DNA of 63,957 nucleotides from Actinomycetota bacterium (GCA_036374435.1 DASUTU010000057.1:1-63957), one strand, 5' to 3'; positions 32,965-63,957 are shown, counted from the first letter of the stretch. Notes: generated from the letters alone by a model not told the origin. Numbers and translations are program-made.

Positions 32965-34122
32965 TTATCGGAGCGCCTGGAGGAGCTCGCGTGCGATCAC
33001 GACCCGCTGGATCTGGTTCGTCCCCTCGTAGATCTGCGTGACCTTCGCGTCGCGCATCAGGCGCTCGACCGGGTACTCGCGCACGTAGCCGTACCCGCCG
33101 AGCACCTGCACGGCGTCCGTGGTGATCCGCATGGCCGCGTCGGAGGCGAAACACTTCGCCACGCTGGAGAAGTAGGTCATCCGTTCGTCGCCCGCGTCGC
33201 ACAGGGCGAGCGCCTTGTACACGAGGAGGCGGGACGCCTCGAGCTGCATCGCCATGTCGGCGAGCATGAACGAGACGCCCTGGAACTCGGAGATCGGCTT
33301 GCCGAACTGCTCGCGCTCGCCGGCGTACCGCGCCGCGAAGTCGAACGCCCCCTGGGCGATGCCGAGGGCCTGGGCGCCGATCAGCGGGCGCGAGTAGTCG
33401 AGCGTCTCCAGCGCGATGCGGAAGCCCTGCCCCTCCTCCCCGATCAGCCGGTCGCCCGGCAGGCGAGCCCCCGAGAGGATCACCTCGCGCGTCGGGGAAC
33501 CTCGGATGCCCATCTTGTCTTCCTTCCGCCCGAACGAGACGCCCGGGTCGTCCTTCATGGCGAGGAACGCGCTGATGCCTTTGGCCCGTTCGGCCGGATC
33601 GCGCGTGGCGAAGACCACGTAGGCGTGGCTCACCCCGGCGCCGGTGATGAACCGCTTCGTGCCGTCGAGCACGAACTCATCGCCGTCGCGCGCGTACCGC
33701 GTCGACAGCGCCGCGGCGTCCGACCCGGCCCCGGGCTCGGTGAGCGCGTACGACATCAAGATGTCCCCGCGCACGATGCCTTCGATCATGCTCCGGCGCT
33801 GCTCCTCGGTCCCGGCCAGGGCGAGCGGGATCACGCCGAGCTTGCTCACCGCCGGCGCGAGCGCGAGCCCCGCGGCCACGCGCGACAGCTCCTCCACCAG
33901 GACGCCGAACGCGAGCGACCCGCCGCCCGATCCGCCGTACTCCTCGGGGTACCCCACCCCTGTGAGCTCGTTGTCGACGAGGACCCGGAACAGGTCCTCG
34001 GGCCATTCGTCGGTGCGATCGATCTCGTCGGCGCGAGGAGCGATCTTCTCTTCGGCGATCTGCCGGACCAGGGCTCGGAACTCCTCGAGCTCCGGGGGCA
34101 GCGCGAAGCGCTCCAGGTCCAT
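32965..34122 (-). CDS. Acyl-CoA dehydrogenase (short/branched-chain type)
   Basis: YALTEPGAGSDAA, GTKRFIT, KMGIRGSPT, RPLIGAQALGIA, REQFGKPI, LGGYGYVREYPVERLMRDAKVTQIYEGTNQIQR. Confidence 0.95.
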   Translation of the reverse strand: MDLERFALPPELEEFRALVRQIAEEKIAPRADEIDRTDEWPEDLFRVLVDNELTGVGYPEEYGGSGGGSLAFGVLVEELSRVAAGLALAPAVSKLGVIPLALAGTEEQRRSMIEGIVRGDILMSYALTEPGAGSDAAALSTRYARDGDEFVLDGTKRFITGAGVSHAYVVFATRDPAERAKGISAFLAMKDDPGVSFGRKEDKMGIRGSPTREVILSGARLPGDRLIGEEGQGFRIALETLDYSRPLIGAQALGIAQGAFDFAARYAGEREQFGKPISEFQGVSFMLADMAMQLEASRLLVYKALALCDAGDERMTYFSSVAKCFASDAAMRITTDAVQVLGGYGYVREYPVERLMRDAKVTQIYEGTNQIQRVVIARELLQALR

Positions 34123-34124
34123 GC

Positions 34125-35306
34125 TCACACTCGGCGCAGGAGGAGGGCGTCGCCCTGGCCGCCACCCCCGCAGATCGTCGCGCCGCCGAGCTCCACCCCA
34201 CGCCGGCGCATCTCGTACGCGAGCGTGAGCACGATCCTCGCCCCGCTCATCCCGATGGGGTGCCCGAGCGCGACCGCGCCGCCGTTCACGTTCGTGAGCT
34301 CCTCGTCGAATCCCAGCGTGCGGGTCACGTTCAGGGACACCGCCGCGAAGGCCTCGTTCACCTCGAGCAAGCCGAGGTCGTGCACGTCCAGCTGCGCCTT
34401 CTTCAGCGCGTGCTGGAGTGCCAGCGCAGGAACCGTGTGCAGGTACGTGTAGCGTTCGGCGGACATCCCGTGCGCCACGATCTCGACCATCGGCGAGAGC
34501 CCGAGCCGTTCGGCCGCCTCTCGGCGCGCCACCACGACGGCCGCTGCGCCGTCGCTGATCTGGGCCGCGTTCCCCGCCGTGATCGTGCCGTTCTCGGTGA
34601 AGGCGGGAGGCAGTGTGGCGAGGACCTCGGGCGTGGAGTCGGCCCGGATGCCCTCGTCGCGTTCGACCACGATCGGGTCGCCCCGTCGCTGGGGGATCTC
34701 GACGGGGACGGCCTCGTCCGACAGACGCCCCGACTCCCACCCGTCGTGCACCCGCCGGTGCGACCGGGCCGCCCAGAGGTCCTGCGCCTCGCGGGTGATC
34801 CCGAGCTCGGCGTTGACCTCGTCCGAGGAGGCCCCCATGTGTTCCTGGCGGAAGCTCGACCAGAGGCCGTCCTGGACCATGGAGTCGATCATCTGGGTGT
34901 GGCCGAGGCGCGTCCCGGACCGCGCGCTCGGCAGGAGGTGGGGAGCCCGGCTCATGGACTCCATGCCGCCGGCCACGACCACGTCCACCTCGCCGGCGCG
35001 GATGAGCTGATCGGCCAGGGCGATCGCGTTGATGCCCGAGAGGCAGACCTTGTCGACGTTGAGGGCCGGGACCTCTTTGGGGATCCCGGCGGCCACGGCG
35101 GCCTGGCGAGCCGTGATCTGTCCGGTCCCCGCCCGGAGGACCTGCCCCATGATCACGTAGTCGACCTGTTCTGGCGCCACCCCCGAGCGCGCCAGCGCCT
35201 CGCGGATCGCGATCGCCCCCAGGTCGACCGCGGATTGCTCGGAGAGCACCCCCTGGAACTTGCCGACCGGGGTTCGGGCACCACCGAGGATCACGGACGA
35301 CGCCAT
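34125..35306 (-). CDS. Acetyl-CoA C-acetyltransferase (classical thiolase)
   Basis: Complete catalytic set: KVCLSG, EVNEAF, GHPIGMSG, ICGGGGQG. Confidence 0.95.
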   Translation of the reverse strand: MASSVILGGARTPVGKFQGVLSEQSAVDLGAIAIREALARSGVAPEQVDYVIMGQVLRAGTGQITARQAAVAAGIPKEVPALNVDKVCLSGINAIALADQLIRAGEVDVVVAGGMESMSRAPHLLPSARSGTRLGHTQMIDSMVQDGLWSSFRQEHMGASSDEVNAELGITREAQDLWAARSHRRVHDGWESGRLSDEAVPVEIPQRRGDPIVVERDEGIRADSTPEVLATLPPAFTENGTITAGNAAQISDGAAAVVVARREAAERLGLSPMVEIVAHGMSAERYTYLHTVPALALQHALKKAQLDVHDLGLLEVNEAFAAVSLNVTRTLGFDEELTNVNGGAVALGHPIGMSGARIVLTLAYEMRRRGVELGGATICGGGGQGDALLLRRV

Positions 35307-35428
35307 GGCCTCCCACCGCTCGTCGGTCGTTCGGCCCAGTCTACCGTCGGGTCGCCGCACACCCCGTGGCGACCGGTCGCGTCGACTGTGCCATCCTCGA
35401 TGGAGGTCGAGGAGACGAAGGAGGACCG

Positions 35429-36304
35429 GTGGCGGAGACGAGGTTCGGCGTGACGCTCATCCCCTCGGCGTCGGGGCGGTCGGACCCCGTCGCCGAAGCC
35501 AAACGCGCCGAGGAGCTCGGGTTCGACCTCGTCGCCGTGTGGGACCACCCGCACGGCGAACACCCCTCGTTCGAGACCTGGACGTTCATGACCTGGGTCG
35601 CCGCGAACACCAGCCGGATCCGGATCGCCTCGAACGTGCTCGGGATGCCGTTCCGGCTCCCGGCGCTCGTCGCCAAGATGGCCGAGAGCCTCGACCGGCT
35701 CTCGGGGGGGCGGCTGATCCTCGGCCTGGGAGCCGGAGGAAGCGATACCGAGCTCGCTGGCTTCGGAGCACCGACCCTCCCGCCCGACGAGAAGGTCGAT
35801 GCGCTCGAGGAGGCGGTCGAGGTCATCCGTGGCGTGTGGACCGAACCCGCGTTCACGTACGACGGCGCGTATTACCGCAACGACGAAGCACTCGTGGAGC
35901 CCAAGCCGGCCCGGCCGATCCCGATCTGGCTCGGCGCGTACGGCCCGCGGATGCTCGAGCTCACCGGCCGGCTCGCCGGCGGCTGGATCCCCTCGATGGG
36001 ATTCCTCCCCGTCACGCGGGTCAAAGAGGCCATGGATCGCGTCCGGATCGCGGCCGAACGCTCGGGACGGGACCCCGACGGGCTCGACTACGCCTACAAC
36101 GTCCAGGTGCGGGTGGGCGGATCACCGGCGGAGGACCCCGACCGTCGCCTGGCCGGCGAACTCGCTCAGGTGGTCGAGCAGCTCTCCGCCATCCTCGACC
36201 TCGGCTTCACGGTCCTGAACCTCATGGTCGGCGGGCGCCGGGACGAGCAGATGGAGCTCCTCGGCACCGAGGTCCTGCCCGAGCTCCGGCGGCCCGGCGG
36301 CTGA
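35429..36304 (+). CDS. LLM-class flavin/F420-dependent oxidoreductase
   Basis: AEELGFDLVAVWDH, LDRLSGGRLILGLGAG, PIPIWLGAYGPRML. Confidence 0.88.
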   Translation: MAETRFGVTLIPSASGRSDPVAEAKRAEELGFDLVAVWDHPHGEHPSFETWTFMTWVAANTSRIRIASNVLGMPFRLPALVAKMAESLDRLSGGRLILGLGAGGSDTELAGFGAPTLPPDEKVDALEEAVEVIRGVWTEPAFTYDGAYYRNDEALVEPKPARPIPIWLGAYGPRMLELTGRLAGGWIPSMGFLPVTRVKEAMDRVRIAAERSGRDPDGLDYAYNVQVRVGGSPAEDPDRRLAGELAQVVEQLSAILDLGFTVLNLMVGGRRDEQMELLGTEVLPELRRPGG

Positions 36305-39685: not shown

Positions 39686-40927
39686 CTACGGCAGGCCGGT
39701 CAGCCCTCGGCGAGGCGCCCCCACCAGGACCGAGACGTTCCCCTGGGGCAGCTCGCCGTCGGCCATGAGCTGGTGCGCCTTCCCGGCCTCGTGGTACTCG
39801 AACACTCCCCCGAGGGTGGTCTGGATGCGACCCGCGCGGACCAGGTCGTTGAACGCGGCGGCCTGCTCGTCGTTGAACAGGTGAGACCCCTGGTACCGCT
39901 TCTGGAGGTACCAGAGGTACCGGACGTCGATCACCGTGTCGTAGCCGGACGTCCCGGCGCAGATCACGATCATCCCGCCGCGGTCGCACACGAAGTTCGA
40001 CGTGGGGATGGTGTCCTGCCCGGGATGTTCGAACACGATGCGCGGGTTGGTTCGTTCGCCGAGCACGTCCCAGATCGCCTTGCCGAACGCCTTCGCGCCC
40101 TCGAACCAACCTTTCCAGGCCGGGTCGTTCCACGGGGGCGGCACGCCCCAGTGCGAGAACTTCGACCGGTCCACGTAGCCGACGGCGCCGAGACTCTTGC
40201 TGTAGTCGCCGCGTTCGTCGCTCGAGACCACCGCCACCGCGCGGCCGCCGGCCAGCGCCACGAGCTGGATCGCCAGCGACCCCAGGCCCCCCGAGCCACC
40301 CCAGACCAGCACCACGTCCCCTTCGCGAACCGTGTGGGGCGGCCATCCGTGGAGCATCCGGTACGCCGTCGAACCCGTCAGCGTCGGCGCGGCCGCCTCC
40401 TCCCACGTCAGGTGTTCGGCCCTCGGCAGGCACTGGTGGGCCTGCACCTTCGTGTACTGCGCGAACGAACCCCAACACGTGTCGTAGCCCCACACCCGAA
40501 AGCTCGGCGCGAGCCCCGGGTCGTTCCCGGCGCCCACCCAGGGGTCGTCGAGGTCCCACTGCCCCGCGTGTACGACGACGTGATCGCCGACCTTCACGTT
40601 CGTCACCCGGTCGCCCACGGCCGCCACGATCCCCGAGGCGTCCGAGCCCACGATGTGGAACTCGGTGGGTTCGCCCCAGCGGGCCTGGGTCTTCGTCACG
40701 TCCACCGGAACTCCGCGGGCCGCCCACACGTTGTTGAAGTTGACCCCGGCCGCCATCACGAAGACGAGCGCCTCGTCCGGCCCGACCTCGGGGACGTCGA
40801 TCACCTCGTCCCGGACCGCATCGACCGGCTCCCCGAACCGGTCGGGGCGAACCAACTGAGCGTGCATCCGGGGTGGCACCTCGCCGAGCGGCGGGAGCTC
40901 GCCGAGGTCGTAGACGTCCTTGCCCAT
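39686..40927 (-). CDS. ccr: Crotonyl-CoA carboxylase/reductase (enoyl-CoA carboxylase/reductase family)
   Basis: VMAAGVNFNNVWAA, GSDASG, WGYDT, LTGSTAYRML, VWGGSGGLG, VFEHPG, ICAGTSG, QGSH motifs. Confidence 0.9.
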   Translation of the reverse strand: MGKDVYDLGELPPLGEVPPRMHAQLVRPDRFGEPVDAVRDEVIDVPEVGPDEALVFVMAAGVNFNNVWAARGVPVDVTKTQARWGEPTEFHIVGSDASGIVAAVGDRVTNVKVGDHVVVHAGQWDLDDPWVGAGNDPGLAPSFRVWGYDTCWGSFAQYTKVQAHQCLPRAEHLTWEEAAAPTLTGSTAYRMLHGWPPHTVREGDVVLVWGGSGGLGSLAIQLVALAGGRAVAVVSSDERGDYSKSLGAVGYVDRSKFSHWGVPPPWNDPAWKGWFEGAKAFGKAIWDVLGERTNPRIVFEHPGQDTIPTSNFVCDRGGMIVICAGTSGYDTVIDVRYLWYLQKRYQGSHLFNDEQAAAFNDLVRAGRIQTTLGGVFEYHEAGKAHQLMADGELPQGNVSVLVGAPRRGLTGLP

Positions 40928-40965
40928 GGTGGTCGGCCTCCGGGAACGGCGTGAGTGGCCGGAGC

Positions 40966-41916
40966 CTATCCCGGTGCCGGAGACGGCGACAAAGCCGAGG
41001 GGCACGTCGCCACCCGTGGGCACCACGTGCAAAACGGGCCGGGCCGCAACGCAAGCGGATGCCCTGCCTGGGCCGCGGCCGCGGCGCGAACCGCATCGAT
41101 CACGCGATCGGCGGCGCGACCGAGCACCCGGGTGTCCACGTCTTCGGCCTGCCACTGGCCCGAGTCGAGGTACAACGTGGCCACCCGGTACGGCGGAACC
41201 CCGAACCGCAGCGCGAGCACGAGCGCGTAGAACCGCATGTCCTCGGCGTGCTCCGGCCAGGCCCGCCCGGTCTTCAGGTCGATCGCCAGCCGCGTGGCCC
41301 GATTGGGCTCCGCCGGCGAGGCCGCACCGAGCACGAGGTCGAGCTGTCCCGAGAGCACCAGCGCGCCGCCGAGCAGCTCGGCCCGGACGTGCCACTCGGT
41401 GGAGGGGGCGAGATGGCGCCGGAGCGGACGGAGCGGCGGGAGCGTGGCCCGGAACAGCTCGAGGGTCTTGGCCGCCTCCATCAACGTCTCGTCCCGCCGG
41501 AGCGGATCGAGGGCGTCCCAGTAGGCCCGGAAGCCGTCGTCTTCGATGAGACGGTCGGCCGCTTCGGCCACCAGCCCGTGGGCGTCCCGGTCCGCGCGGC
41601 CCGCCACCTCGAGCTCGATGGACTTGTGCGCGAGGCGTCCGGCGGCGAACCTGGGCGTGAACGAGAAGGGAGCGCGTTCCCCGGACCGGACGGCGTCGAA
41701 CAACCCCGGGCAGCGGCCCAGGTCGTTCAGGTTGGACTTGCCCAGCCACAGCGGCTCGGCCAGCTCGAACCCGCGGGCGGCGTCTTCGATCCGGTCGCGG
41801 ATCTTCGGCACCAGGTCGCCCGGCACCAGCGGCCGCTCGCCCGTCCCGATCAGCCCCTCGAGCGTGCGGCGCTGCGGGGCCGTCAGCTCGACCGCGCGCT
41901 CGAGGGTGGCATCCAC
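40966..41916 (-). CDS. PD-(D/E)XK (RecB/AddB-like) nuclease with 4-Cys Fe-S staple
   Basis: GQLDLV...IDLKTG...MRFYA nuclease motifs; N-terminal GRCP plus C-terminal CTWCPRVATC. Confidence 0.82.
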   Translation of the reverse strand: MDATLERAVELTAPQRRTLEGLIGTGERPLVPGDLVPKIRDRIEDAARGFELAEPLWLGKSNLNDLGRCPGLFDAVRSGERAPFSFTPRFAAGRLAHKSIELEVAGRADRDAHGLVAEAADRLIEDDGFRAYWDALDPLRRDETLMEAAKTLELFRATLPPLRPLRRHLAPSTEWHVRAELLGGALVLSGQLDLVLGAASPAEPNRATRLAIDLKTGRAWPEHAEDMRFYALVLALRFGVPPYRVATLYLDSGQWQAEDVDTRVLGRAADRVIDAVRAAAAAQAGHPLALRPGPFCTWCPRVATCPSALSPSPAPG

Positions 41917-43595: not shown

Positions 43596-43649
43596 ACTGT
43601 CCTCCGCGGGGTGACCCGGACGTGTCGCTGGCCGTATGCTCGGCGGACC

Positions 43650-45242
43650 GTGGCCACCACCGAGGAACGACCCGCCGCCGGGCCCCCCGGGCCGAGCATC
43701 GAGGAACGCATCGAGGAGCTCCGCAAACGCCGGGCTCAGCTTGCCGATTCGGCCCGCAAAGAGGCCGTTCGCAAGCAGCACGAGAAGGGCAAGCTCACCG
43801 CCCGCGAGCGGATCGACCTGCTCCTGGACCGGGACACGTTCCAGGAGACCGATCCGTTCGCGGTGCACCGCAGCCACGACCTCGGCATGGAGCGGAACCG
43901 CCCGCCCGGAGACGGCGTGGTGACGGGCTACGGGACGATCGACGGCCGACGGGCGTTCGTGGCCAGCCAGGACTTCACCGTGTTCGGCGGGTCCCTGGGC
44001 GAGGTGCACGCGCAGAAGATCTGCAAGGTGATGGACCTCGCGATGTCCACGGGCGCCCCGTTCATCGCCATCAACGACTCGGGCGGCGCCAGGATCCAGG
44101 AAGGGGCGGCGAGCCTCGCCGGATACGGCTACGTCTTCGAGCGCAACGTCCGAGCTTCGGGCGTCATCCCCCAGATCAGCGTCATCATGGGCCCGTGCGC
44201 CGGCGGGGCCGTGTACTCCCCCGCCATCACCGACTTCACGTTCATGGTGCGCGAGACCTCGCACATGTTCATCACCGGACCCGACGTCATCAAGACCGTG
44301 ACCGGCGAGGAGGTGACGTTCGAGGAGCTCGGTGGCGCGATGACGCACGCCAGCAAGTCCGGTGTGGCCTCGTTCGTGGCCCAGGACGAGGCCGAGTGCC
44401 TGGCCATGGTCCGCCACCTCCTTTCCTACCTGCCGCCGAACAACGTCGAGGACCCCCCGTCGTACGCGCCGGTGGACGACCCCGAACGCGAGGACGACGG
44501 CCTCACCCGCCTCGTCCCGGACTCGGCCAAGGAGGCATACGACATGCACGAGGTCGTTCGCCGCGTCGTGGACGACGGCGACTTCTTCGAGGTCTTCCCG
44601 TATTGGGCGATGAACGTCGTCACGGGGTTCGCCCGGTTGGACGGGCGCAGCGTCGGCGTCGTGGCCAACCAGCCGAAGGTGCTCGCCGGGACGCTCGACA
44701 TCGAATCGAGCGAGAAGGCGTCGCGGTTCGTCCGGTTCTGCGATGCGTTCAACACCCCGATCGTCACGTTCGTCGACGTGCCCGGGTTCCTCCCGGGTAC
44801 CGAACAGGAGTTCAGCGGCATCATCCGGCACGGCGCGAAGCTGCTCTACGCGTTCGCCGAGGCCACGGTCCCGAGGCTCACGGTGATCACGCGAAAGGCC
44901 TACGGCGGGGCGTACCTCGTGATGAACTCGAAACACCTGCGGGCCGATGTCTCCTTCGCCTGGCCCACCGCCGAGATCGCCGTGATGGGGCCGGAGGGCG
45001 CCGTGAACGTCGTGTTCCGCAAACAGATCGAGAAGGCCGAGGACCCCACGGTCGCACGCGAGGAGCTCATCCAGCAGTACCAGCAGAAGTTCGCCACGCC
45101 CTACATCGCCGCCGAACGTGGGTTCATCGACGACGTGATCGAGCCGTCCCAGACGCGCCGGCGGTTGATCCGCGCGATGCGGATGCTGGCGACCAAACGC
45201 GAGGCCATCCCGGCCCGTAAACACGGGAACATCCCGCTGTGA
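43650..45242 (+). CDS. pccB: Acyl-CoA (propionyl-CoA) carboxylase beta subunit (carboxyltransferase)
   Basis: [71 protein letters not shown]-terminus. Confidence 0.95.
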
Positions 45243-49021: not shown

Positions 49022-49882
49022 TCAGTCGTAGTCGTAGAAGCCCCGGCCGGTCTTCCGGCCGAGTCGGCCGGCGGTGACCATGCGACGCAGCAGGGGCGGT
49101 GGCGCGAACCGGGCCTCACGGAACTCGTCGTAGAGGACCTCGGCGATCTGCAGGCACGTGTCGAGCCCGATCAGGTCGGCCAGGCGCAGCGGACCCATCG
49201 GGTGGTTCAGCCCGAGGTGGATCGCCGTATCCACGTCCTCGCGAGTGGCGAAGCCGTCCTCGAGCATGCGGATGGCGTCGTTCAGGTAGGGGATCAGCAA
49301 CGTGTTCACGATGAACCCGGCGCGGTCCCGCGACAGAACCGTCGTCTTGCCGATCGTCACGCAGTAGCTGCGCGCCACCTCGACGGTCTCGTCCGAGGTC
49401 GTGATGGCCTTCACGATCTCGACGAGCCCCATCACCGGAACCGGGTTGAAGAAATGCAGTCCGATCACCAGCTCCGGGCGCTTGGTGGCGGCGCCGAGAT
49501 CGGCGATCGGGATCGAGGACGTGTTCGAGGCGAGCACGACGTCCGGCCTGGTGACCTCGTCCAGGCGCCGGAACAGCTCGAGCTTCGTGTCCCGGTCCTC
49601 GGTCGCCGCCTCGATCACCAGGTCCACGTCGGCGAGATCGCGCACGTCGACGGTCCCGCGCACCCGCTCGAGCAGCTCGTCCCGCTCGCGAGGGACGATC
49701 TTCTCCCGTTCGACGGCGCGGAGGGTGGACGTCTCGATCCGGTGACGCCCCACCTCGACGAGCTCCTCGTTGGCCTCGAGGAAGGTCACGTGTTGCCCGG
49801 CCCGAGCCGCCACCTCGACGATGCCCGAACCCATCAGGCCGCATCCCACGACCCCCACCGAACGAACCTCTTCGCCTCGCAT
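49022..49882 (-). CDS. 3-hydroxybutyryl-CoA dehydrogenase
   Basis: VGVVGCGLMGSGI, IEAATE, ASNTSSI, GLHFFNP, GFIVN, PMGPL..ADLIGLD, LGRKTGRGFY. Confidence 0.95.
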   Translation of the reverse strand: MRGEEVRSVGVVGCGLMGSGIVEVAARAGQHVTFLEANEELVEVGRHRIETSTLRAVEREKIVPRERDELLERVRGTVDVRDLADVDLVIEAATEDRDTKLELFRRLDEVTRPDVVLASNTSSIPIADLGAATKRPELVIGLHFFNPVPVMGLVEIVKAITTSDETVEVARSYCVTIGKTTVLSRDRAGFIVNTLLIPYLNDAIRMLEDGFATREDVDTAIHLGLNHPMGPLRLADLIGLDTCLQIAEVLYDEFREARFAPPPLLRRMVTAGRLGRKTGRGFYDYD

Positions 49883-49934
49883 CTCGGTCTCCGGATGAAC
49901 CGACGTCAGAGGCCGAGCGTACAATCAATCGATC

Positions 49935-50363
49935 GTGTCCACGGTCCCCTCCGCCTCGTTCCGGGTGCGCGGCATCCCCGCGTTCGGGTTCGCCGCGGCC
50001 GGCCTGCTGATCGGCTATGGGGTCTCGTACCTGGTTGCCGTCCCGGACCCGCATCACCGCGACCTGCTGATCGACCGGACCGGTCACGCCTACCTGCCGG
50101 CGGCCGGCCAGGCGGCGATCGTCCTGGCGCTTGCCGCGGTGGCCGTGGTGGTCGCCCGGGCGTGGACGGGCCGTCGGGTCGGGTCCGCCGGGCTCATCAC
50201 GCTGGTCGTCGGAGTCGCCGTGGTCCTGTGGCCGCGTGGACGCCCGCCGACGAAGAGACGCAATCGAAGGGCGTCCGGGGCCGAACGCGTCAGCAGACCT
50301 GGGAGAGCAGCGGCCAGGGGTTCACCGCGCCGTTCCCGAGGACCGAGTACCCGTAGGGACTGA
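49935..50363 (+). pseudogene. Membrane protein, probably internally deleted
   Basis: TACAAT 9 nt upstream; TMs and a PDPHHR...TGHAYL motif, then the frame drifts into non-membrane sequence and overlaps the convergent M23 gene by 74 nt. Confidence 0.5.
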
Positions 50364-51453
50364 CCGGCCAGTCGTTCGGGATCACGTTCGGACGCCACTC
50401 GAAGTGGTTGTGCGGCGTGCCGGCGTTCCCCGTCGTCCCCACGTACCCGATGATCTGCCCGGCCTGGACGGGCCCGCTCACGCCGGGCGCGGCCAGGTGC
50501 GCGTTGTAGGTGTACCCGTGTTCGCCGTAGACGTAGACGGCGTAGCCGCCGAGTGAGTTGGTCGAGGTTCGGGCCGTCCCGCTGAACGTCGCACGGATCG
50601 CCGTGCCCTGCGGCGCCATGATGTCGTTGCCGGCGTGCGGGTGGTAGCCACCGCCGTAGCGAGGTGCGCCGAAGCCGTCGAACACGGCGCGAGGCGGGTC
50701 CACCGGGCAGACGTTGAAGACGCCCTCGGCGTAGAACTTCACCTGCGAGAGCGCGGCAAGCTCCCGTTTGTACTTCTTCTCCAGGTCCTTCACGAGCTCG
50801 GCGGCCCGCGCCTTCTTCTCCTCCAGGTCGTCCAAGACCGACTGCTGCTCGGCGAGCTTGGCGTCCAGCGCCGCCTGCTCGGTCTCGACCTCCTGCAAGG
50901 CTCGTGCCGCCTTGGCCTGGAGCTCCTCCTGGCTCTCCCTCTCGGCGGCCAGGGCGTTCTTCAGGTTCTGGACCCGCGTGGCGAGGTCGGTGTCGGTCTC
51001 GTTGAGGGCGTTGATGAACTCGACGCGGGCGGACAGATCCGCGATCGAGGTGGCGCCGAGGAGGAATTCCAGGTCGCTGCCGGGTCCGACGATGAAGGTC
51101 TGGCGAGCGCGATCGGCGAGGTCGCCCTGGAGCGCCTCGAAGTCGTCCCGAGCCCGCTGGAGCTCGAGGCGGGTGATCCGCAGCTCCTCCGTGATCTGCT
51201 CCCACCGGCCCCGGGCCTCGGTGAGACGTTGGGCGATCTCGGCCGCCTCGAGCTGGAGGGTCTGGAGCACCCCTTGCTGGGACTCGATCTGGTCCACCAG
51301 GCGGTTGAACTCGGCCTCGGCGGCGTCGAGCTTCTCCTCGGTGGTCTGCGCACCGGCTGACGGCGACAGCGAAGCCAGCAACGCAGCGGCCAAGACCGCC
51401 ACCAGGACGCGTCCGACCAGGCTTCGAGTGGTGCCGTTTGAGCGCTCGGCCAT
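50290..51453 (-). CDS. M23/LytM peptidase with N-terminal coiled coil (peptidoglycan hydrolase)
   Basis: Signal peptide, long coiled coil, HAGND (HxxxD), YNAHL, HNH (HxH). Confidence 0.9.
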   Translation of the reverse strand: MAERSNGTTRSLVGRVLVAVLAAALLASLSPSAGAQTTEEKLDAAEAEFNRLVDQIESQQGVLQTLQLEAAEIAQRLTEARGRWEQITEELRITRLELQRARDDFEALQGDLADRARQTFIVGPGSDLEFLLGATSIADLSARVEFINALNETDTDLATRVQNLKNALAAERESQEELQAKAARALQEVETEQAALDAKLAEQQSVLDDLEEKKARAAELVKDLEKKYKRELAALSQVKFYAEGVFNVCPVDPPRAVFDGFGAPRYGGGYHPHAGNDIMAPQGTAIRATFSGTARTSTNSLGGYAVYVYGEHGYTYNAHLAAPGVSGPVQAGQIIGYVGTTGNAGTPHNHFEWRPNVIPNDWPVSPYGYSVLGNGAVNPWPLLSQVC

Positions 51454-51600
51454 GGAAAGGGCCCTTTGCTTATCGAACCCCGCCCGGGGGTGTCAACCGC
51501 GGGCGGATCGAGGGTGCCGTCTCCGGACCCCCGATGCAATCACCCTCAGCGGCCGGTTGGGGGGTCTTGAGGCCCGCCGCGGCAGGGCCGGCCGTCCGGA

Positions 51601-60022: not shown

Positions 60023-60772
60023 TTACTCCAGGTGCCGGACCTCCCCGAACCGGACCGTCTCGGTCTTCTCACCGGTCCGGACGACGAGCCCTCCCGCCTC
60101 GTCCACGTCGTCGGCCACGCCCTCAACGTCTCGCCCGTCGACGGTCGTCGCGCGGACGCGCAGCCCGAGCGTCGCGCACCGCGCCCGGTACTCGGCCACG
60201 ATCGAGCTCGCGAAACCCTCGGAGGAGGGTTCGTACCGCGCCGCGAAGGCGGACAGGAATGCGGCGAGCAGGTCTTCGGGCTCCGCGTCCACCGCGCCGG
60301 CGGTCGGCACGTCGGCGGGCGGCGCGCCGAGGTTCACACCGACCCCGAGCACGGCGTGCTCGATCGAGGCTTCAGCGAGGCGCGACTCGAGCAACATACC
60401 GCCGGCCTTGCGACCATCCACGAGCAGGTCGTTGGGCCATTTACAGGCGGGCCCCGCCGTGTGCGGACGGCACGCGTCGACCAGCGCGACCCCGGCGAGC
60501 AGCGATAGGAGACCGCCCCGCTCGGCCGCCAACCCCGGGCGAAGCACGAGCGAGAACATGAGGGCGTTCCCGGGTTCGTCGCGCCAGGTCCGGCCCAGGC
60601 GCCCGCGGCCCTCGGTCTGGTGCCCGGCGGCCACGAGCGACCACTCCGGCGCACCGGCGGAGGCGAGCTCGAGCGCCGTCGCCTGGGTCGAGCGGGTAAC
60701 CTCGTCGAACCGCGCCGGGGCGTGCAGCCCGGCCCGTTCGAGGGCTCGGGACAGGGCGGCCTCGGTCAGCAC
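60023..60772 (-). CDS. birA: Biotin--protein ligase (no DNA-binding HTH)
   Basis: STQ, QTEGRGRLGRTW, KWPNDLL, KAGGML, LGVGVN. Confidence 0.93.
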   Translation of the reverse strand: MLTEAALSRALERAGLHAPARFDEVTRSTQATALELASAGAPEWSLVAAGHQTEGRGRLGRTWRDEPGNALMFSLVLRPGLAAERGGLLSLLAGVALVDACRPHTAGPACKWPNDLLVDGRKAGGMLLESRLAEASIEHAVLGVGVNLGAPPADVPTAGAVDAEPEDLLAAFLSAFAARYEPSSEGFASSIVAEYRARCATLGLRVRATTVDGRDVEGVADDVDEAGGLVVRTGEKTETVRFGEVRHLE

Positions 60773-60825
60773 CGTTGTTTGACTCCCGTTGTGGGGTACC
60801 CGATTATCGGCTGCCGGAGCGGCGC

Positions 60826-62553
60826 GTGACGAAACCTCGGATCCTGATCGCGAACCGCGGCGAGATCGCCGTCCGGATCATCCGGACGATCCGCGAGCTC
60901 GGGTACACCTCCATCGCCGTCTACAGCGACGCGGATCGGGACGCCATGCACGTGGAGATGGCCGACCAGGCGTACCACATCGGTCCGCCGCTGCCCGCGG
61001 ACTCATACCTGTCCATCGGCTCGATCCTGGACGCCGCGCGAAAGGGCAAGGCCACGGCGATCCATCCCGGCTACGGGTTCCTGTCCGAGCGAGCGCACTT
61101 CGCGCGAGCGGTCGAGCAGGCCGGCTACACGTTCGTCGGACCGCCGGCCGACGCCATCGAGACGATGGGCGACAAGGCCGCGGCCCGGCAGGCCGCCGAC
61201 CGCGTCGGCGTCCCGATCGTCCCGGGCACCCCCGATCCCGTGACGATCGACGACGCCCGCGCGGAGGCGGACCGGATCGGCTACCCCGTGTTCGTGAAGG
61301 CGGCGTTCGGCGGCGGCGGGCGAGGCATGCACATCGTTCGCAAACCCGAGGAGCTCCGGAACGCGCTCGCCCGCGCGGCGCGTGAGGCCACGGCGTATTT
61401 CGGCCGCCCCGAGGTCTTCCTCGAGCGGTACCTCGAGCGCGCACATCACGTGGAGGCGCAGATCATCGCGGACGCCCGCGGCAACACCTTCTTCCTCGGG
61501 GAGCGCGACTGTTCGGTCCAGCGTCGCCACCAGAAGCTGATCGAGGAGACCCCGTCGCCGGTGGTGGACGCGGAGCTGCGCAGCCGGATCGGCGAGGCCG
61601 CGATGGCGCTGGCCAAGGAGGCCGGGTACGTGAACGCCGGCACGGTCGAGTGCATCGTGGACGAGGACGGCTTCTTCTACTTCCTCGAGATGAACACGCG
61701 GCTCCAGGTCGAGCACACCGTCACCGAGATGGTGACCGGCCTGGACCTGGTGGCCCTGCAGATCGGCGTGGCGCTCGGCGAGAAGCTCGACCTGGATCAC
61801 GTTGGTGCCACCGGGCACGCCATCCAGTGCCGGGTCAACGCCGAGGACCCGGCGAGGAACTTCCTGCCCGGCCCCGGCCGCGTGACCTCCTACCGCGAAC
61901 CCTCCGGGCCGTTCGTACGGGTCGATTCGTTCATCGAGGCCGGACGGGAGGTGCCGGCCGACTATGACTCGATGTTCGCCAAGGTGATCGTCTCGGCGGA
62001 GACGCGGGGACGGGCCATCGCGCGCATGCTCCGGGCGCTCGACGAATACCGGGTGGAGGGGGTGCCCACGACGATCCCGCTCCACCGCTGGATCCTCCAG
62101 AGCCGCGCCTTCCGAAAGGCCACCCACACCACCACCTGGCTCGAGAAGGCGCTCCGCGACGCCGAGCTCGACCTGCCCGACGACGGCGCCACCCCCCCGG
62201 GCGAAGCCAAGCCGACGGTCCCCGCCGAGCTTCTGCTCGAGGTGGACGGGCGCCGGGTCGAGGTGCGGATCTTCGACCATCGTCGCGAGTCGGCCCCCCG
62301 GCCGCCGAGCCGCCAGTCCGCGCACCACGACGGAACGGTCCACAGCGAGGTCCGGGCCCAGATGCAGGGCACGATCCTGCGCGTGCTGGTCGAGCCCGGT
62401 CAGGAGATCCAGGCCGGTGACGTGGTCTGCATCCTCGAGGCGATGAAGATGGAGAACGCCGTCCCGGCTCCGCGGGAGGGCGTCGTGTCCGAGGTCCGCA
62501 TCAACGAAGGTCAGGTGGTGCAGGCCGGCGACACGCTCGTCGTGCTCGACTGA
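60826..62553 (+). CDS. Acetyl/propionyl-CoA carboxylase alpha subunit (biotin carboxylase plus BCCP)
   Basis: ILIANRGEIA, IHPGYGFLSE, GGGGRGM, CSVQRRHQK, EMNTRLQVEH, EAMKMEN biotinyl-Lys. Confidence 0.96.
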   Translation: MTKPRILIANRGEIAVRIIRTIRELGYTSIAVYSDADRDAMHVEMADQAYHIGPPLPADSYLSIGSILDAARKGKATAIHPGYGFLSERAHFARAVEQAGYTFVGPPADAIETMGDKAAARQAADRVGVPIVPGTPDPVTIDDARAEADRIGYPVFVKAAFGGGGRGMHIVRKPEELRNALARAAREATAYFGRPEVFLERYLERAHHVEAQIIADARGNTFFLGERDCSVQRRHQKLIEETPSPVVDAELRSRIGEAAMALAKEAGYVNAGTVECIVDEDGFFYFLEMNTRLQVEHTVTEMVTGLDLVALQIGVALGEKLDLDHVGATGHAIQCRVNAEDPARNFLPGPGRVTSYREPSGPFVRVDSFIEAGREVPADYDSMFAKVIVSAETRGRAIARMLRALDEYRVEGVPTTIPLHRWILQSRAFRKATHTTTWLEKALRDAELDLPDDGATPPGEAKPTVPAELLLEVDGRRVEVRIFDHRRESAPRPPSRQSAHHDGTVHSEVRAQMQGTILRVLVEPGQEIQAGDVVCILEAMKMENAVPAPREGVVSEVRINEGQVVQAGDTLVVLD

Positions 62554-63358: not shown

Positions 63359-63957
63359 TCATCGCGGCCGGTACTCGCCGAACACGTCGCGTAGGACGTC
63401 CGCGACCTCGCCGAGCGTGGCGCGCGCCCGAAGCGCCTCGCGCATGGGCGGGAGCAGGTTGTCGGTCCCTTCGGCGGCGTCCCGGACATCGGCCAGGGCC
63501 ACGCGGACCGCCGCGGCCTCCCGCCGCTCACGCAGCGACCGGAGACGTTCGATCTGGCGCCCGACCTCGGCCTCGCCGATCCGGTGGAGCTCGACCGGTC
63601 GCTCCTGCGGGTCCTCGAAGCGGTTCACCCCCACCACCACCCGCTCTCCGGACTCGACACCTTGCTGGATCCGGTACGCGGCCTCGTGGATCTCGTCCTG
63701 GTAGAACCGCGCCTCGATGGCGGCCACGGGCCCGCCGAGCTCGTCGATCCGCGTCAGGTAATCATCGGCCCGGGCCTCGATCTCATCGGTGAGCGCCTCC
63801 ACGAAGTAGGAGCCGCCGAGCGGATCCGCCACGTTCGCCACGCCGGTCTCGTAGCCGAGGATCTGCTGGGTTCGCAGGGCGATCTTCGCCGCCTGTTCCG
63901 TCGGCAGCGCGAGGGCCTCGTCGAACGAGTTCGTGTGCAGCGACTGCGTCCCGCCGA
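63359..63957 (-). CDS. Acyl-CoA mutase large (substrate-binding) subunit, methylmalonyl/isobutyryl type; 3' part only
   Basis: GGTQSLHTNSFDEALALPT, RTQQI, DPLGGSYFVE, VVGVN, ATLGEV...LR.VFGEY then stop (no B12-binding domain). Confidence 0.9.
   Translation of the reverse strand, partial: GGTQSLHTNSFDEALALPTEQAAKIALRTQQILGYETGVANVADPLGGSYFVEALTDEIEARADDYLTRIDELGGPVAAIEARFYQDEIHEAAYRIQQGVESGERVVVGVNRFEDPQERPVELHRIGEAEVGRQIERLRSLRERREAAAVRVALADVRDAAEGTDNLLPPMREALRARATLGEVADVLRDVFGEYRPR

What the first reader, a model, noticed from the sequence alone, without database searches (positions are those of the whole stretch)
39686..40927. Ccr with a variant CO2-binding site (GYDT instead of G[F/Y]ET)
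In K. setae Ccr, Asn81, Phe170, Glu171 and His365 position CO2 (established). This protein keeps NFN, an aromatic residue (Y) and GSH but has Asp at the Glu position (WGYDTCWGS). The usual pocket Cys segment reads HAGQW (seen). Inference: altered carboxylation versus reduction ratio, or a wider acyl-chain range, which is relevant to synthetic CO2-fixation enzymes.
Basis: partly seen in the sequence, partly recalled or inferred. Interest (0 to 1): 0.55.

Follow-up and report, generated by a model that had tools for sequence, protein, structure and literature searches.

The report
Remodelled Ccr enzyme without its pathway
The gene is a real CO2-fixing crotonyl-CoA carboxylase/reductase relative whose Asp-for-Glu change is genuine but swaps freely with Glu among close relatives; more notably, this whole soil-actinobacterial family has lost the pathway the enzyme normally serves yet kept the enzyme, with six active-site changes.

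Summary
Window 39686-40927 (-) encodes a 413-aa ECR/Ccr-family protein (TIGR01751, 506 bits). Alignment through a gapless KsCcr proxy gives N81/F170/E171/H365 = N65/Y148/D149/H349.

Asp is not a one-off. All 120 nearest database homologs have it, as do 66 of 80 species-level syntenic orthologs. Inside the Asp clade, Glu has returned at least five times (GAC/GAG) with nothing else changed. Asp and Glu therefore look interchangeable here, and Asp alone is unlikely to redefine the chemistry.

Asp is one of six co-occurring active-site changes: C145A/P, I167V, E171D, N173C/A, F366L and A367F/M. Together they define a "type II" Ccr.

- **Sister families:** the canonical signature occurs in 16 published genomes (plus 3 unpublished by tally), all with ethylmalonyl-CoA mutase and none with isocitrate lyase.
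- **Own family:** 130 of 138 genomes have Ccr and 0 of 138 have the mutase. Isocitrate lyase was found in 26 of 36 relatives but not in this genome.
- **Window:** ecm is missing between hbd and an M23 peptidase gene.

The best reading is a functional reductive carboxylase that no longer serves the ethylmalonyl-CoA pathway. Its substrate and role are unknown. Other first readers in this scan noted the same neighbourhood in other genomes and read it as EMC-type.

The parts
39686..40927 (-). ccr-like gene (413 aa, P0001), type II enoyl-CoA carboxylase/reductase
   Evidence: TIGR01751 at 506.4 bits against a cut-off of 378.55. Pfam ADH_N plus ADH_zinc_N. AF2 model pLDDT 93.9, TM 0.96 to 9KVA.
40937..40941 (-). 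Shine-Dalgarno GGAGG, 9 nt before ATG 40927
   Evidence: Read directly from the sequence. Homologs start at the same Met, with 100% coverage.
40733..40741 (-). NFN (N63-F64-N65); N65 is the KsCcr Asn81 CO2 anchor
   Evidence: Alignment. N65 is nearly invariant in alignment A1.
40556..40570 (-). HAGQW (120-124); A121 replaces the pocket Cys (KsCcr C145)
40466..40495 (-). V145 plus WGYDTCWGS (146-154): I167V, Y148 (=F170), D149 (=E171, codon GAC at 40481-40483), C151 (=N173)
39875..39889 (-). GSHLF (347-351): H349 (=H365), L350 (=F366 = AntE V350 gatekeeper), F351 (=A367)
   Evidence: PMC6164871
38758..39153 (+). methylmalonyl/ethylmalonyl-CoA epimerase, convergent with ccr (start approximate)
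   Evidence: TIGR03081 at 137 bits against a cut-off of 115. Synteny is conserved in nearly all related loci long enough to show it.
40966..41916 (-). PD-(D/E)XK nuclease-family gene directly upstream of ccr, same strand
   Evidence: PF12705; conserved upstream of ccr in both type I and type II loci
34125..35456 (-). acetyl-CoA acetyltransferase (thiolase; the true start is probably downstream of 35456)
43611..45242 (+). acyl-CoA carboxylase carboxyltransferase (PccB-like)
   Evidence: PF01039 at 683 bits; TIGR01117-like
49022..49924 (-). 3-hydroxyacyl-CoA dehydrogenase (Hbd)
   Evidence: 57% identical to the G053 Hbd
49925..50289 (.). site of the missing ecm: in type I relative G053, a VTT-domain gene and ecm lie between hbd and the M23 peptidase gene
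60700..62553 (+). biotin carboxylase/BCCP subunit (PccA-like)
63359..63955 (-). methylmalonyl-CoA-mutase-type large subunit, cut by the contig end (MCM-like, not Ecm)

Best explanation
The gene encodes a functional NADPH-dependent enoyl-CoA carboxylase/reductase (ECR/Ccr family). It belongs to a lineage-specific 'type II' form found in one family of uncultured soil Actinomycetota and a small sister family.

Proposed mechanism, inferred by homology to KsCcr:
- Hydride transfer from NADPH to C3 of an enoyl-CoA gives an enolate.
- The enolate attacks CO2, which is held by Asn65.
- Tyr148 shields the site from water.
- An ordered water is bridged by His349 and the acidic residue 149.

In this lineage residue 149 may be Asp (about 90%) or Glu (about 10%). 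Asp149 is therefore a tolerated, near-equivalent replacement and not a functional switch.

The more consequential change is a concerted remodelling of the pocket (C145A/P, I167V, N173C/A, F366L, A367F/M). On the sampled genomes it coincides with loss of ethylmalonyl-CoA mutase, and in many relatives with presence of isocitrate lyase. The enzyme thus no longer serves the ethylmalonyl-CoA pathway but has been kept under purifying selection for another role.

That role is not known. The leading guess is reductive carboxylation of a short enoyl-CoA whose product enters the adjacent epimerase and MCM route, or a redox and CO2 valve in C4 acyl-CoA/PHB metabolism.

Shown here: family membership, the residue mapping, the D/E toggling, the six-site signature, the absence of ecm, and purifying selection. 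Inferred: retained carboxylation, and the substrate.
For: - **Family and fold:**
- **Residue mapping:**
- **Asp is clade-wide:**
- **Tree:** Asp arises once, at the base of a clade with SH-aLRT 100, with canonical-Glu sister clades. At least 5 D-to-E reversions follow inside the clade. The revertants keep the rest of the signature.
- **Only acidic residues:** only Asp or Glu was seen at this site across the roughly 200 type II sequences examined.
- **Signature against ecm:** 16 published type I genomes (N-C-I-Y-E-N-H-F-A) all have a fused MeaA/Ecm ortholog, 57-63% identical to Ruegeria MeaA at about 850 bits. 34 type II genomes have none.
- **Wider sample of the own family:** 0 of 138 genomes at least 85% complete have Ecm at E<=1e-150, and 130 of 138 have Ccr, single copy in all but G034.
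- **Deletion site:** ecm is missing between hbd and the M23 peptidase gene in the window.
- **Isocitrate lyase:** 26/36 in f1 and 2/2 in f3, but 0 of the Ecm-positive genomes. Two f7 genomes that have ICL lack both ccr and ecm.
- **Selection:** dN/dS is about 0.19 against 38 orthologs.
- **Pocket conservation:** N65 and H349 are nearly invariant.
- **Literature:** E171A retains 97% carboxylation and F170Y retains 100%.
Against: - No biochemistry exists for any type II member.
- The association between signature and ecm loss rests on a single evolutionary transition (f1+f3), so it is one event and not replicated evidence.
- Without Ecm, ethylmalonyl-CoA has no obvious consumer in these genomes. 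This sits awkwardly with continued crotonyl-CoA carboxylation.
- Smaller pocket residues argue against specialisation on the smaller acrylyl-CoA.
- The window's own genome and about half of its genus show no ICL hit, so 'ICL replaced EMC' does not hold for every member.
Only the F366/AntE V350 position was checked against a paper.
- Several tallies include unpublished genomes.
Confidence: 0.6

Rival explanations
1. One reading: Asp at the Glu171 position is itself the functional novelty, changing the carboxylation/reduction ratio or the substrate range.
For: The residue does lie in the published CO2/water pocket. Glu is otherwise near-universal among 50%-identity representatives of the family. 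No characterised ECR with Asp turned up.
Against: Asp and Glu interchange at least 5 times among syntenic orthologs with an otherwise identical pocket. E171A still carboxylates at 97%; its main effect is on kcat and on Km for crotonyl-CoA. The closest solved structure, 9KVA, has Asn at this position, so the site is naturally variable.
Confidence: 0.12
2. Acrylyl-CoA carboxylase/reductase: the enzyme turns acrylyl-CoA into (2S)-methylmalonyl-CoA, which the adjacent epimerase and the MCM-type mutase convert to succinyl-CoA.
For: This is the only candidate whose product has a complete downstream route encoded in these genomes: the epimerase is convergent with ccr, and PCC and an MCM-like mutase lie in the same window. 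Canonical Ccrs are known to accept acrylyl-CoA (established knowledge, not checked here). An earlier scan note on other DNA (e1-3920353) proposed the same role for another orphan Ccr branch; that is a lead, not evidence.
Against: Three pocket residues became smaller, not larger. The epimerase synteny is inherited from type I relatives, where it serves the EMC pathway, so it says nothing specific. No acrylyl-CoA source was identified.
Confidence: 0.18
3. Reductase in practice: it mainly makes butyryl-CoA (or another saturated acyl-CoA), for example as an NADPH sink or as a feed to the ICM/HCM-like mutase, with carboxylation vestigial.
For: Ecm is absent, so ethylmalonyl-CoA looks like a dead end. 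A second mutase is present with Phe at the MCM Tyr89 position and an adjacent MeaB. The window holds thiolase, Hbd and an ACAD.
Against: Asn65, the aromatic Tyr148, an acidic 149 and His349 are conserved across the sampled type II orthologs, whereas loss of Asn81 or Phe170 is what makes KsCcr a reductase. Both mutases are also present in type I genomes.
Confidence: 0.12
4. Ordinary EMC-pathway Ccr; the pathway genes were simply missed.
For: The gene scores above the TIGR01751 equivalog cut-off. Its neighbours (thiolase, hbd, epimerase, PCC) look EMC-like, and other first readers read the same neighbourhood that way.
Against: 0 of 138 family genomes have Ecm with a query that finds it at E<=1e-244 in sister families. 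Complete chromosome G001 has only two mutases, neither Ecm-like, and no HpcH/CitE-type lyase. The syntenic ecm slot in the window is empty.
Confidence: 0.04

Closest known systems
K. setae Ccr (PDB 6OWE/6NA3), the reference for the CO2 pocket (Stoffel 2019, PMC6628652)
   Same: Same family and fold (37% identity, TM about 0.87). Asn81, the aromatic at 170 and His365 are conserved, and the residue at 171 is acidic.
   Different: E171D, C145A, I167V, N173C, F366L and A367F. The N-terminus is shorter (413 aa against about 445). There is no ethylmalonyl-CoA mutase partner in the genome.
Mesorhizobium metallidurans 'dimeric ECR' (PDB 9KVA; bioRxiv 10.1101/2025.10.17.683039)
   Same: Closest solved structure: 545 bits, 60% identity, TM 0.96. 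It also departs from Glu at position 171.
   Different: It has Asn, not Asp, at 171, Gly at the gatekeeper after the His, and Ile at 167. The preprint reports neither activity nor any discussion of the pocket.
AntE (PDB 4Y0K), an antimycin extender-unit ECR
   Same: 52% identity. It has Val at the I167 position and a non-aromatic gatekeeper (V350) where this protein has L350.
   Different: AntE keeps Glu, sits in a PKS/NRPS cluster and is a secondary-metabolism enzyme. This gene is a near-universal, almost always single-copy gene of its family with no PKS nearby.
Methylorubrum extorquens Ccr (PDB 4GI2) and type I Ccrs of the sister families
   Same: 49% identity to 4GI2 and 58-69% to the type I orthologs. 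The flanking synteny (PccB, PD-(D/E)XK, ccr, epimerase, FtsH-like, thiolase) matches that of the type I relatives.
   Different: Type I enzymes carry C-I-E-N-F-A and co-occur with ecm. Type II carries A-V-D-C-L-F and lacks ecm.

Membership tests
Enoyl-CoA carboxylase/reductase (ECR; NCBIfam TIGR01751) | Score above the curated equivalog cut-off | tested here: met
   506.4 bits against 378.55
Enoyl-CoA carboxylase/reductase (ECR; NCBIfam TIGR01751) | MDR two-domain fold (GroES-like plus Rossmann domains) | tested here: met
   PF08240 and PF00107. AF2 pLDDT 93.9; the top 14 listed matches in the PDB fold search are all ECR chains.
Enoyl-CoA carboxylase/reductase (ECR; NCBIfam TIGR01751) | Asn81 CO2 anchor | tested here: met
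   N65; nearly invariant
Enoyl-CoA carboxylase/reductase (ECR; NCBIfam TIGR01751) | Aromatic water shield at position 170 (Phe or Tyr) | tested here: met
   Y148. F170Y is fully carboxylating in KsCcr.
Enoyl-CoA carboxylase/reductase (ECR; NCBIfam TIGR01751) | Glu171 coordinating the ordered water | tested here: not met
   D149. An acidic residue is retained, and Glu occurs in about 10% of the type II orthologs.
Enoyl-CoA carboxylase/reductase (ECR; NCBIfam TIGR01751) | His365 | tested here: met
   H349
Enoyl-CoA carboxylase/reductase (ECR; NCBIfam TIGR01751) | NADPH-dependent reductive carboxylation of an enoyl-CoA | not testable with these tools
   Needs an enzyme assay
Primary-metabolism Ccr of the ethylmalonyl-CoA pathway (EC 1.3.1.85) | Genome also encodes ethylmalonyl-CoA mutase (Ecm/MeaA) | tested here: not met
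   No Ecm ortholog in G000, in closed relative G001, or in 138 family genomes. The same query finds it in 19 sister-family genomes.
Primary-metabolism Ccr of the ethylmalonyl-CoA pathway (EC 1.3.1.85) | Malyl-CoA/beta-methylmalyl-CoA lyase (HpcH/CitE type) present | tested here: inconclusive
   G000 has a single HpaI-like aldolase hit. Closed G001 has none, and 15 of 36 family genomes have none. Some family members do have a 126-147-bit hit.
Primary-metabolism Ccr of the ethylmalonyl-CoA pathway (EC 1.3.1.85) | Crotonyl-size pocket residues C145/I167/F366 | tested here: not met
   A121/V145/L350. The pocket role of the first two is from memory of the literature.
Primary-metabolism Ccr of the ethylmalonyl-CoA pathway (EC 1.3.1.85) | Neighbourhood with the epimerase and C4 acyl-CoA genes | tested here: met
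Secondary-metabolism ECR (polyketide extender supply) | Located in a PKS/NRPS gene cluster; patchy distribution | tested here: not met
   None of the genes annotated here between 34 and 64 kb is a PKS. The gene is single-copy in 130 of 138 family genomes.

The most novel reading that the evidence does not exclude
Type II ECRs are a new functional class: a reductive carboxylase that lost its link to the ethylmalonyl-CoA pathway and was retuned by six pocket changes for another enoyl-CoA. One candidate is acrylyl-CoA, giving methylmalonyl-CoA and then succinyl-CoA without ATP; another is a C5-C6 substrate. If so, a widespread group of uncultured soil Actinomycetota would have an unrecognised CO2-fixing anaplerotic or redox-valve reaction.
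Probability: 0.3. Interest if true: 0.72.

Novelty: new variant of a known kind. Interest (0 to 1): 0.48.

Why it matters
ECRs are the fastest known carboxylases and the core of synthetic CO2-fixation cycles. Their CO2 pocket is described as four fixed residues.

This work supplies a large natural data set in which the Glu of that tetrad is Asp in most members and flips back to Glu repeatedly. That is direct comparative evidence for what the site tolerates, and it gives ready-made sequence pairs for kinetic comparison, such as L054 and L055.

It also shows that finding 'ccr' in a MAG does not imply an ethylmalonyl-CoA pathway. In this family (130 of 138 genomes with ccr, 0 with ecm) such an annotation-based inference would be wrong. 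The real role of a conserved, near-universal carboxylase in abundant soil bacteria is open.

Tried and rejected
1. **Aldolase-like cluster as an Mcl or Ecm replacement.** Its distribution is not complementary. It occurs in f1 (33/36) but also in all 5 sampled f8 genomes that have Ecm, where it sits next to ecm. Rejected as a replacement.

2. **Mcd-like ACAD in G053.** An apparent 572-aa ACAD with an N-terminal extension in type I genome G053 was an ORF-calling artefact. It overlaps a histidine-kinase gene. Its ortholog, without the extension, lies in the window at about 32971-34146. Mcd and Mch status is therefore not resolved.

3. **Genes between ccr and the epimerase.** In some type I loci these are variable small ORFs, not obvious EMC genes. 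They were not annotated further.

4. **Promoter and terminator scan around ccr.** Nothing was found.

5. **Literature.** No hit for 'E171D' with crotonyl-CoA. The 9KVA preprint does not discuss the pocket or activity. Peter 2015 and Quade 2012 are not in the library, so the pocket roles of C145 and I167 rest on memory.

6. **Representative P0146.** This WGYNT sequence is a defective, long-branch sequence that was misplaced in the tree. It was ignored.

7. **Tool availability.** Context came from the search for related loci and the genome search instead.

8. **KsCcr subunit-coupling residues E151/N157/N218.** These fall in an indel-rich region and do not map cleanly. No conclusion was drawn.

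Full report
**1. What is at the coordinates**

Window 39686-40927 (-) translates to a 413-aa protein, P0001.
- The longer ORF to 41749 is an Arg/Pro/Gly-rich high-GC artefact.
- The real start is ATG 40927, preceded by GGAGG nine bases upstream. Database homologs begin at the same Met.
- The protein scores 506 bits on NCBIfam TIGR01751 'crotonyl-CoA carboxylase/reductase' against a cut-off of 378.55. It has the two MDR domains.
- Its best solved relatives are all ECRs: 9KVA, AntE 4Y0K, M. extorquens Ccr 4GI2, then K. setae Ccr.
- An AlphaFold model is confident (pLDDT 93.9). It superposes on 9KVA at TM 0.96 and 60% identity, and on KsCcr 6OWE at TM about 0.87 and 37% identity.

**2. Numbering**

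Representative P0166 aligns to KsCcr (6NA3/6OWE) without a single gap. It carries N, F, E and H at positions 81, 170, 171 and 365, so it can stand in for KsCcr numbering. In a MAFFT alignment of family representatives the mapping is as follows:

| KsCcr | P0001 |
|---|---|
| N81 | N65 |
| F170 | Y148 |
| E171 | D149 |
| H365 | H349 |
| C145 | A121 |
| I167 | V145 |
| N173 | C151 |
| F366 | L350 |
| A367 | F351 |

The Asp codon is GAC at 40483-40481.

**3. Is the Asp unusual?**

Across the family it is. Nearly all full-length 50%-identity representatives read WG[YF]E. Within this lineage it is the rule:
- All 120 nearest 90%-cluster representatives (80-91% identical, annotated 'Actinomycetota bacterium' MAGs) carry Asp, as WGYD[TS]CWGS in 119 and WGYDTAWGS in one.
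- More than 590 species-level genomes hold a relative. The best 80 are nearly all soil or groundwater Actinomycetota MAGs.
- Those loci share one gene order: GT4, PccB, a small unknown gene, a PD-(D/E)XK nuclease, ccr, a convergent methylmalonyl-CoA epimerase, an FtsH-like protease and thiolase.
- Of the 80, 66 have Asp and 14 have Glu.

**4. Asp and Glu toggle**

A maximum-likelihood tree puts the Asp sequences in one clade (SH-aLRT 100), with canonical Glu-bearing sister groups. Inside that clade, Glu reappears at least five separate times: L060; L012; L058/L040/L043; L035; and L054 beside the near-identical L055.
- All seven revertants keep the rest of the local signature.
- Among 39 gap-free coding sequences, codon 149 is GAC in 34 and GAG in 5, a single third-base change.
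- No residue other than Asp or Glu was seen at this site in the clade.

The site therefore needs a carboxylate but does not care much which one.

The published mutant data point the same way. KsCcr E171A loses 17-fold in kcat and gains 25-fold in Km for crotonyl-CoA, yet still gives 97% carboxylated product. F170Y gives 100% (PMC6628652).

**5. The Asp is one of six linked changes**

Tabulating pocket positions over the 80 loci and over 50 relatives fetched from whole genomes gives two discrete signatures. The order is N81-C145-I167-F170-E171-N173-H365-F366-A367.

| Type | Signature |
|---|---|
| I | N-C-I-Y-E-N-H-F-A |
| II | N-[A/P]-V-Y-[D>E]-[C>A]-H-L-[F/M] |

- The residue after the catalytic His is a known chain-length gatekeeper. 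AntE V350 aligns exactly with L350, and V350G widens AntE's substrate range (PMC6164871).
- That C145 and I167 also line the acyl pocket is my recollection of Quade 2012 and Peter 2015. I could not check it here.

**6. The pathway context changed at the same node**

Using MeaA of Ruegeria sp. TM1040, annotated next to ccrA on its megaplasmid, as the query:

| Group | Ccr signature | Ecm (MeaA ortholog) | Isocitrate lyase |
|---|---|---|---|
| 19 sister-family genomes (f2, f4-f8) | type I, verified in the 16 published ones | all 19: fused, 57-63% identical, about 850 bits, usually 10-17 kb from ccr | 0 of 19 |
| f1 (own family) and f3 in the 61-genome sample | type II, verified in 34 genomes | none: best hits 38-46% identity, MCM-like or ICM/HCM-like | 26/36 in f1, 2/2 in f3 |
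| 138 f1 genomes at least 85% complete, 31 genera | not typed (Ccr in 130, single copy in all but G034) | 0 at E<=1e-150 | not searched |
| G047, G057 (f7) | no ccr | none | both have it |

The positional evidence agrees. In type I genome G053 the order is M23 peptidase, ecm, VTT, hbd, amidohydrolase, GT2, GT4, CoA-transferase III, pccB, PD-(D/E)XK, ccr, epimerase, FtsH-like, thiolase. In the window, hbd (49022-49924) abuts the M23 peptidase gene (50290-51492). There is no ecm remnant, and the CoA-transferase and amidohydrolase genes are also missing.

This is the classic either/or of acetate assimilation routes. The ordinary outcome of switching routes is to lose both ccr and ecm, as G047 and G057 did. 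The type II lineage kept ccr.

It is kept under purifying selection, with dN/dS about 0.19 (an upper-bound-like NG86 estimate). N65 and H349 are essentially invariant.

Caveats:
- G000 itself and about half of its genus show no ICL hit.
- HpcH/CitE-type lyase hits are patchy and not cleanly absent.
- All of this reflects one evolutionary transition, so the correlation is a single event.

**7. What it probably does**

Conservation of the CO2 anchor Asn, the aromatic shield, an acidic 149 and the His argues that reductive carboxylation is retained. I put this at about 65%.

The substrate is open.
- **Crotonyl-CoA** is the default. Its product, ethylmalonyl-CoA, has no evident consumer, unless the Tyr-type MCM-like mutase accepts it. 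Parts of that mutase lie at the window end, and a full copy is at L104 in the closed relative.
- **Acrylyl-CoA** would give methylmalonyl-CoA, which the adjacent epimerase and the MCM-like mutase can take to succinyl-CoA. That is the only option with a closed route. The smaller pocket residues do not suggest a smaller substrate.
- **A reductase-only role**, feeding butyryl-CoA to the Phe-type ICM/HCM-like mutase with MeaB, is possible. It does not explain why the CO2 pocket is conserved.

The upstream PD-(D/E)XK gene and the epimerase synteny are shared with type I relatives. They carry no specific information.

**8. Comparison with what is known, and novelty**

The protein is a member of the ECR family by score, fold and three of the four pocket residues. 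It fails two defining features of an EMC-pathway Ccr (an Ecm partner and the crotonyl-type pocket). It also fails the defining context of secondary-metabolism ECRs.
- I found no paper describing an Asp-171 ECR, or ECRs retained without Ecm.
- The closest solved structure, 9KVA, has Asn at this site but was not discussed in those terms.
- Other first readers of this scan saw the same neighbourhood in other genomes and called it EMC-type. The absence of ecm contradicts that reading for this lineage.

I rate it a new variant of a known kind. The flagged residue by itself is close to ordinary. The orphaned, remodelled enzyme is moderately interesting and directly testable.

**9. Data caveat**

- The tallies include unpublished genomes G016, G039, G046, G054 and G064.
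- One search also includes G068, G090, G091, G122, G126, G136, G137 and G162.
- The residue table uses none of them.
- The figure '19 with Ecm' is 16 published plus 3 unpublished genomes.
- Most genomes are MAGs, and absence statements mean 'not found in those searched'.

Noticed in passing
window 49925-50289, compared with L167:6410-9096: A clean gap where ethylmalonyl-CoA mutase and a VTT-domain gene sit in a sister-family genome. hbd and an M23 peptidase gene are adjacent here. The CoA-transferase III gene (between GT4 and pccB) and an amidohydrolase gene of the relative are also missing.
   Followed up: yes
order-level sample G000-G065: Within this order, Ecm plus type I Ccr and isocitrate lyase were mutually exclusive in the 61 genomes sampled. 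Two genomes with ICL (G047, G057) lack both ccr and ecm.
   Followed up: partly
window ~32971-34146 (-): An acyl-CoA dehydrogenase directly downstream of the thiolase, 66% identical to the one at the same position in G053. My GC3 filter missed it in the first gene call.
   Followed up: partly
L089 (G000:C49:30469-35031): A second acyl-CoA mutase large subunit next to a MeaB GTPase gene. It has Phe where MCM has the carboxylate-binding Tyr (RQFAG against RQYAG), and its best PDB hit is 2-hydroxyisobutyryl-CoA mutase. It is probably ICM/HCM-type.
   Followed up: partly
PDB 9KVA (alignment): The published 'dimeric primary ECR' of M. metallidurans reads WGYNT (Asn at Glu171) and GSHG (Gly gatekeeper). 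The preprint mentions neither feature.
   Followed up: partly
G034:C13:518790-519941 (L147): One family member carries a second, type-I-like Ccr (47% identical to P0001, N-C-I-Y-E-S-H-F-A). It lies near a mutase hit and HpcH-type hits, so it may be a horizontally acquired module.
   Followed up: no
G023, G028, G152, G153, G158: In a few family genomes ccr matches only in part, or with an internal stop. These are either pseudogenes or frameshift errors in long-read assemblies.
   Followed up: no
G064:C15, G054:C128, G048:C63, G061:C51: In family f8 the Cys-less thiolase-like/DUF35 cluster lies 5-10 kb from ecm. It therefore belongs to the same conserved acyl-CoA neighbourhood in genomes that still have the EMC genes. 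G064 and G054 are unpublished.
   Followed up: partly
window 40966-41916 (-): The PD-(D/E)XK (Cas4/AddB-like) nuclease gene ends 38 bp before the ccr start on the same strand. It holds this position in both type I and type II genomes, which is an odd, conserved pairing with a metabolic gene.
   Followed up: no
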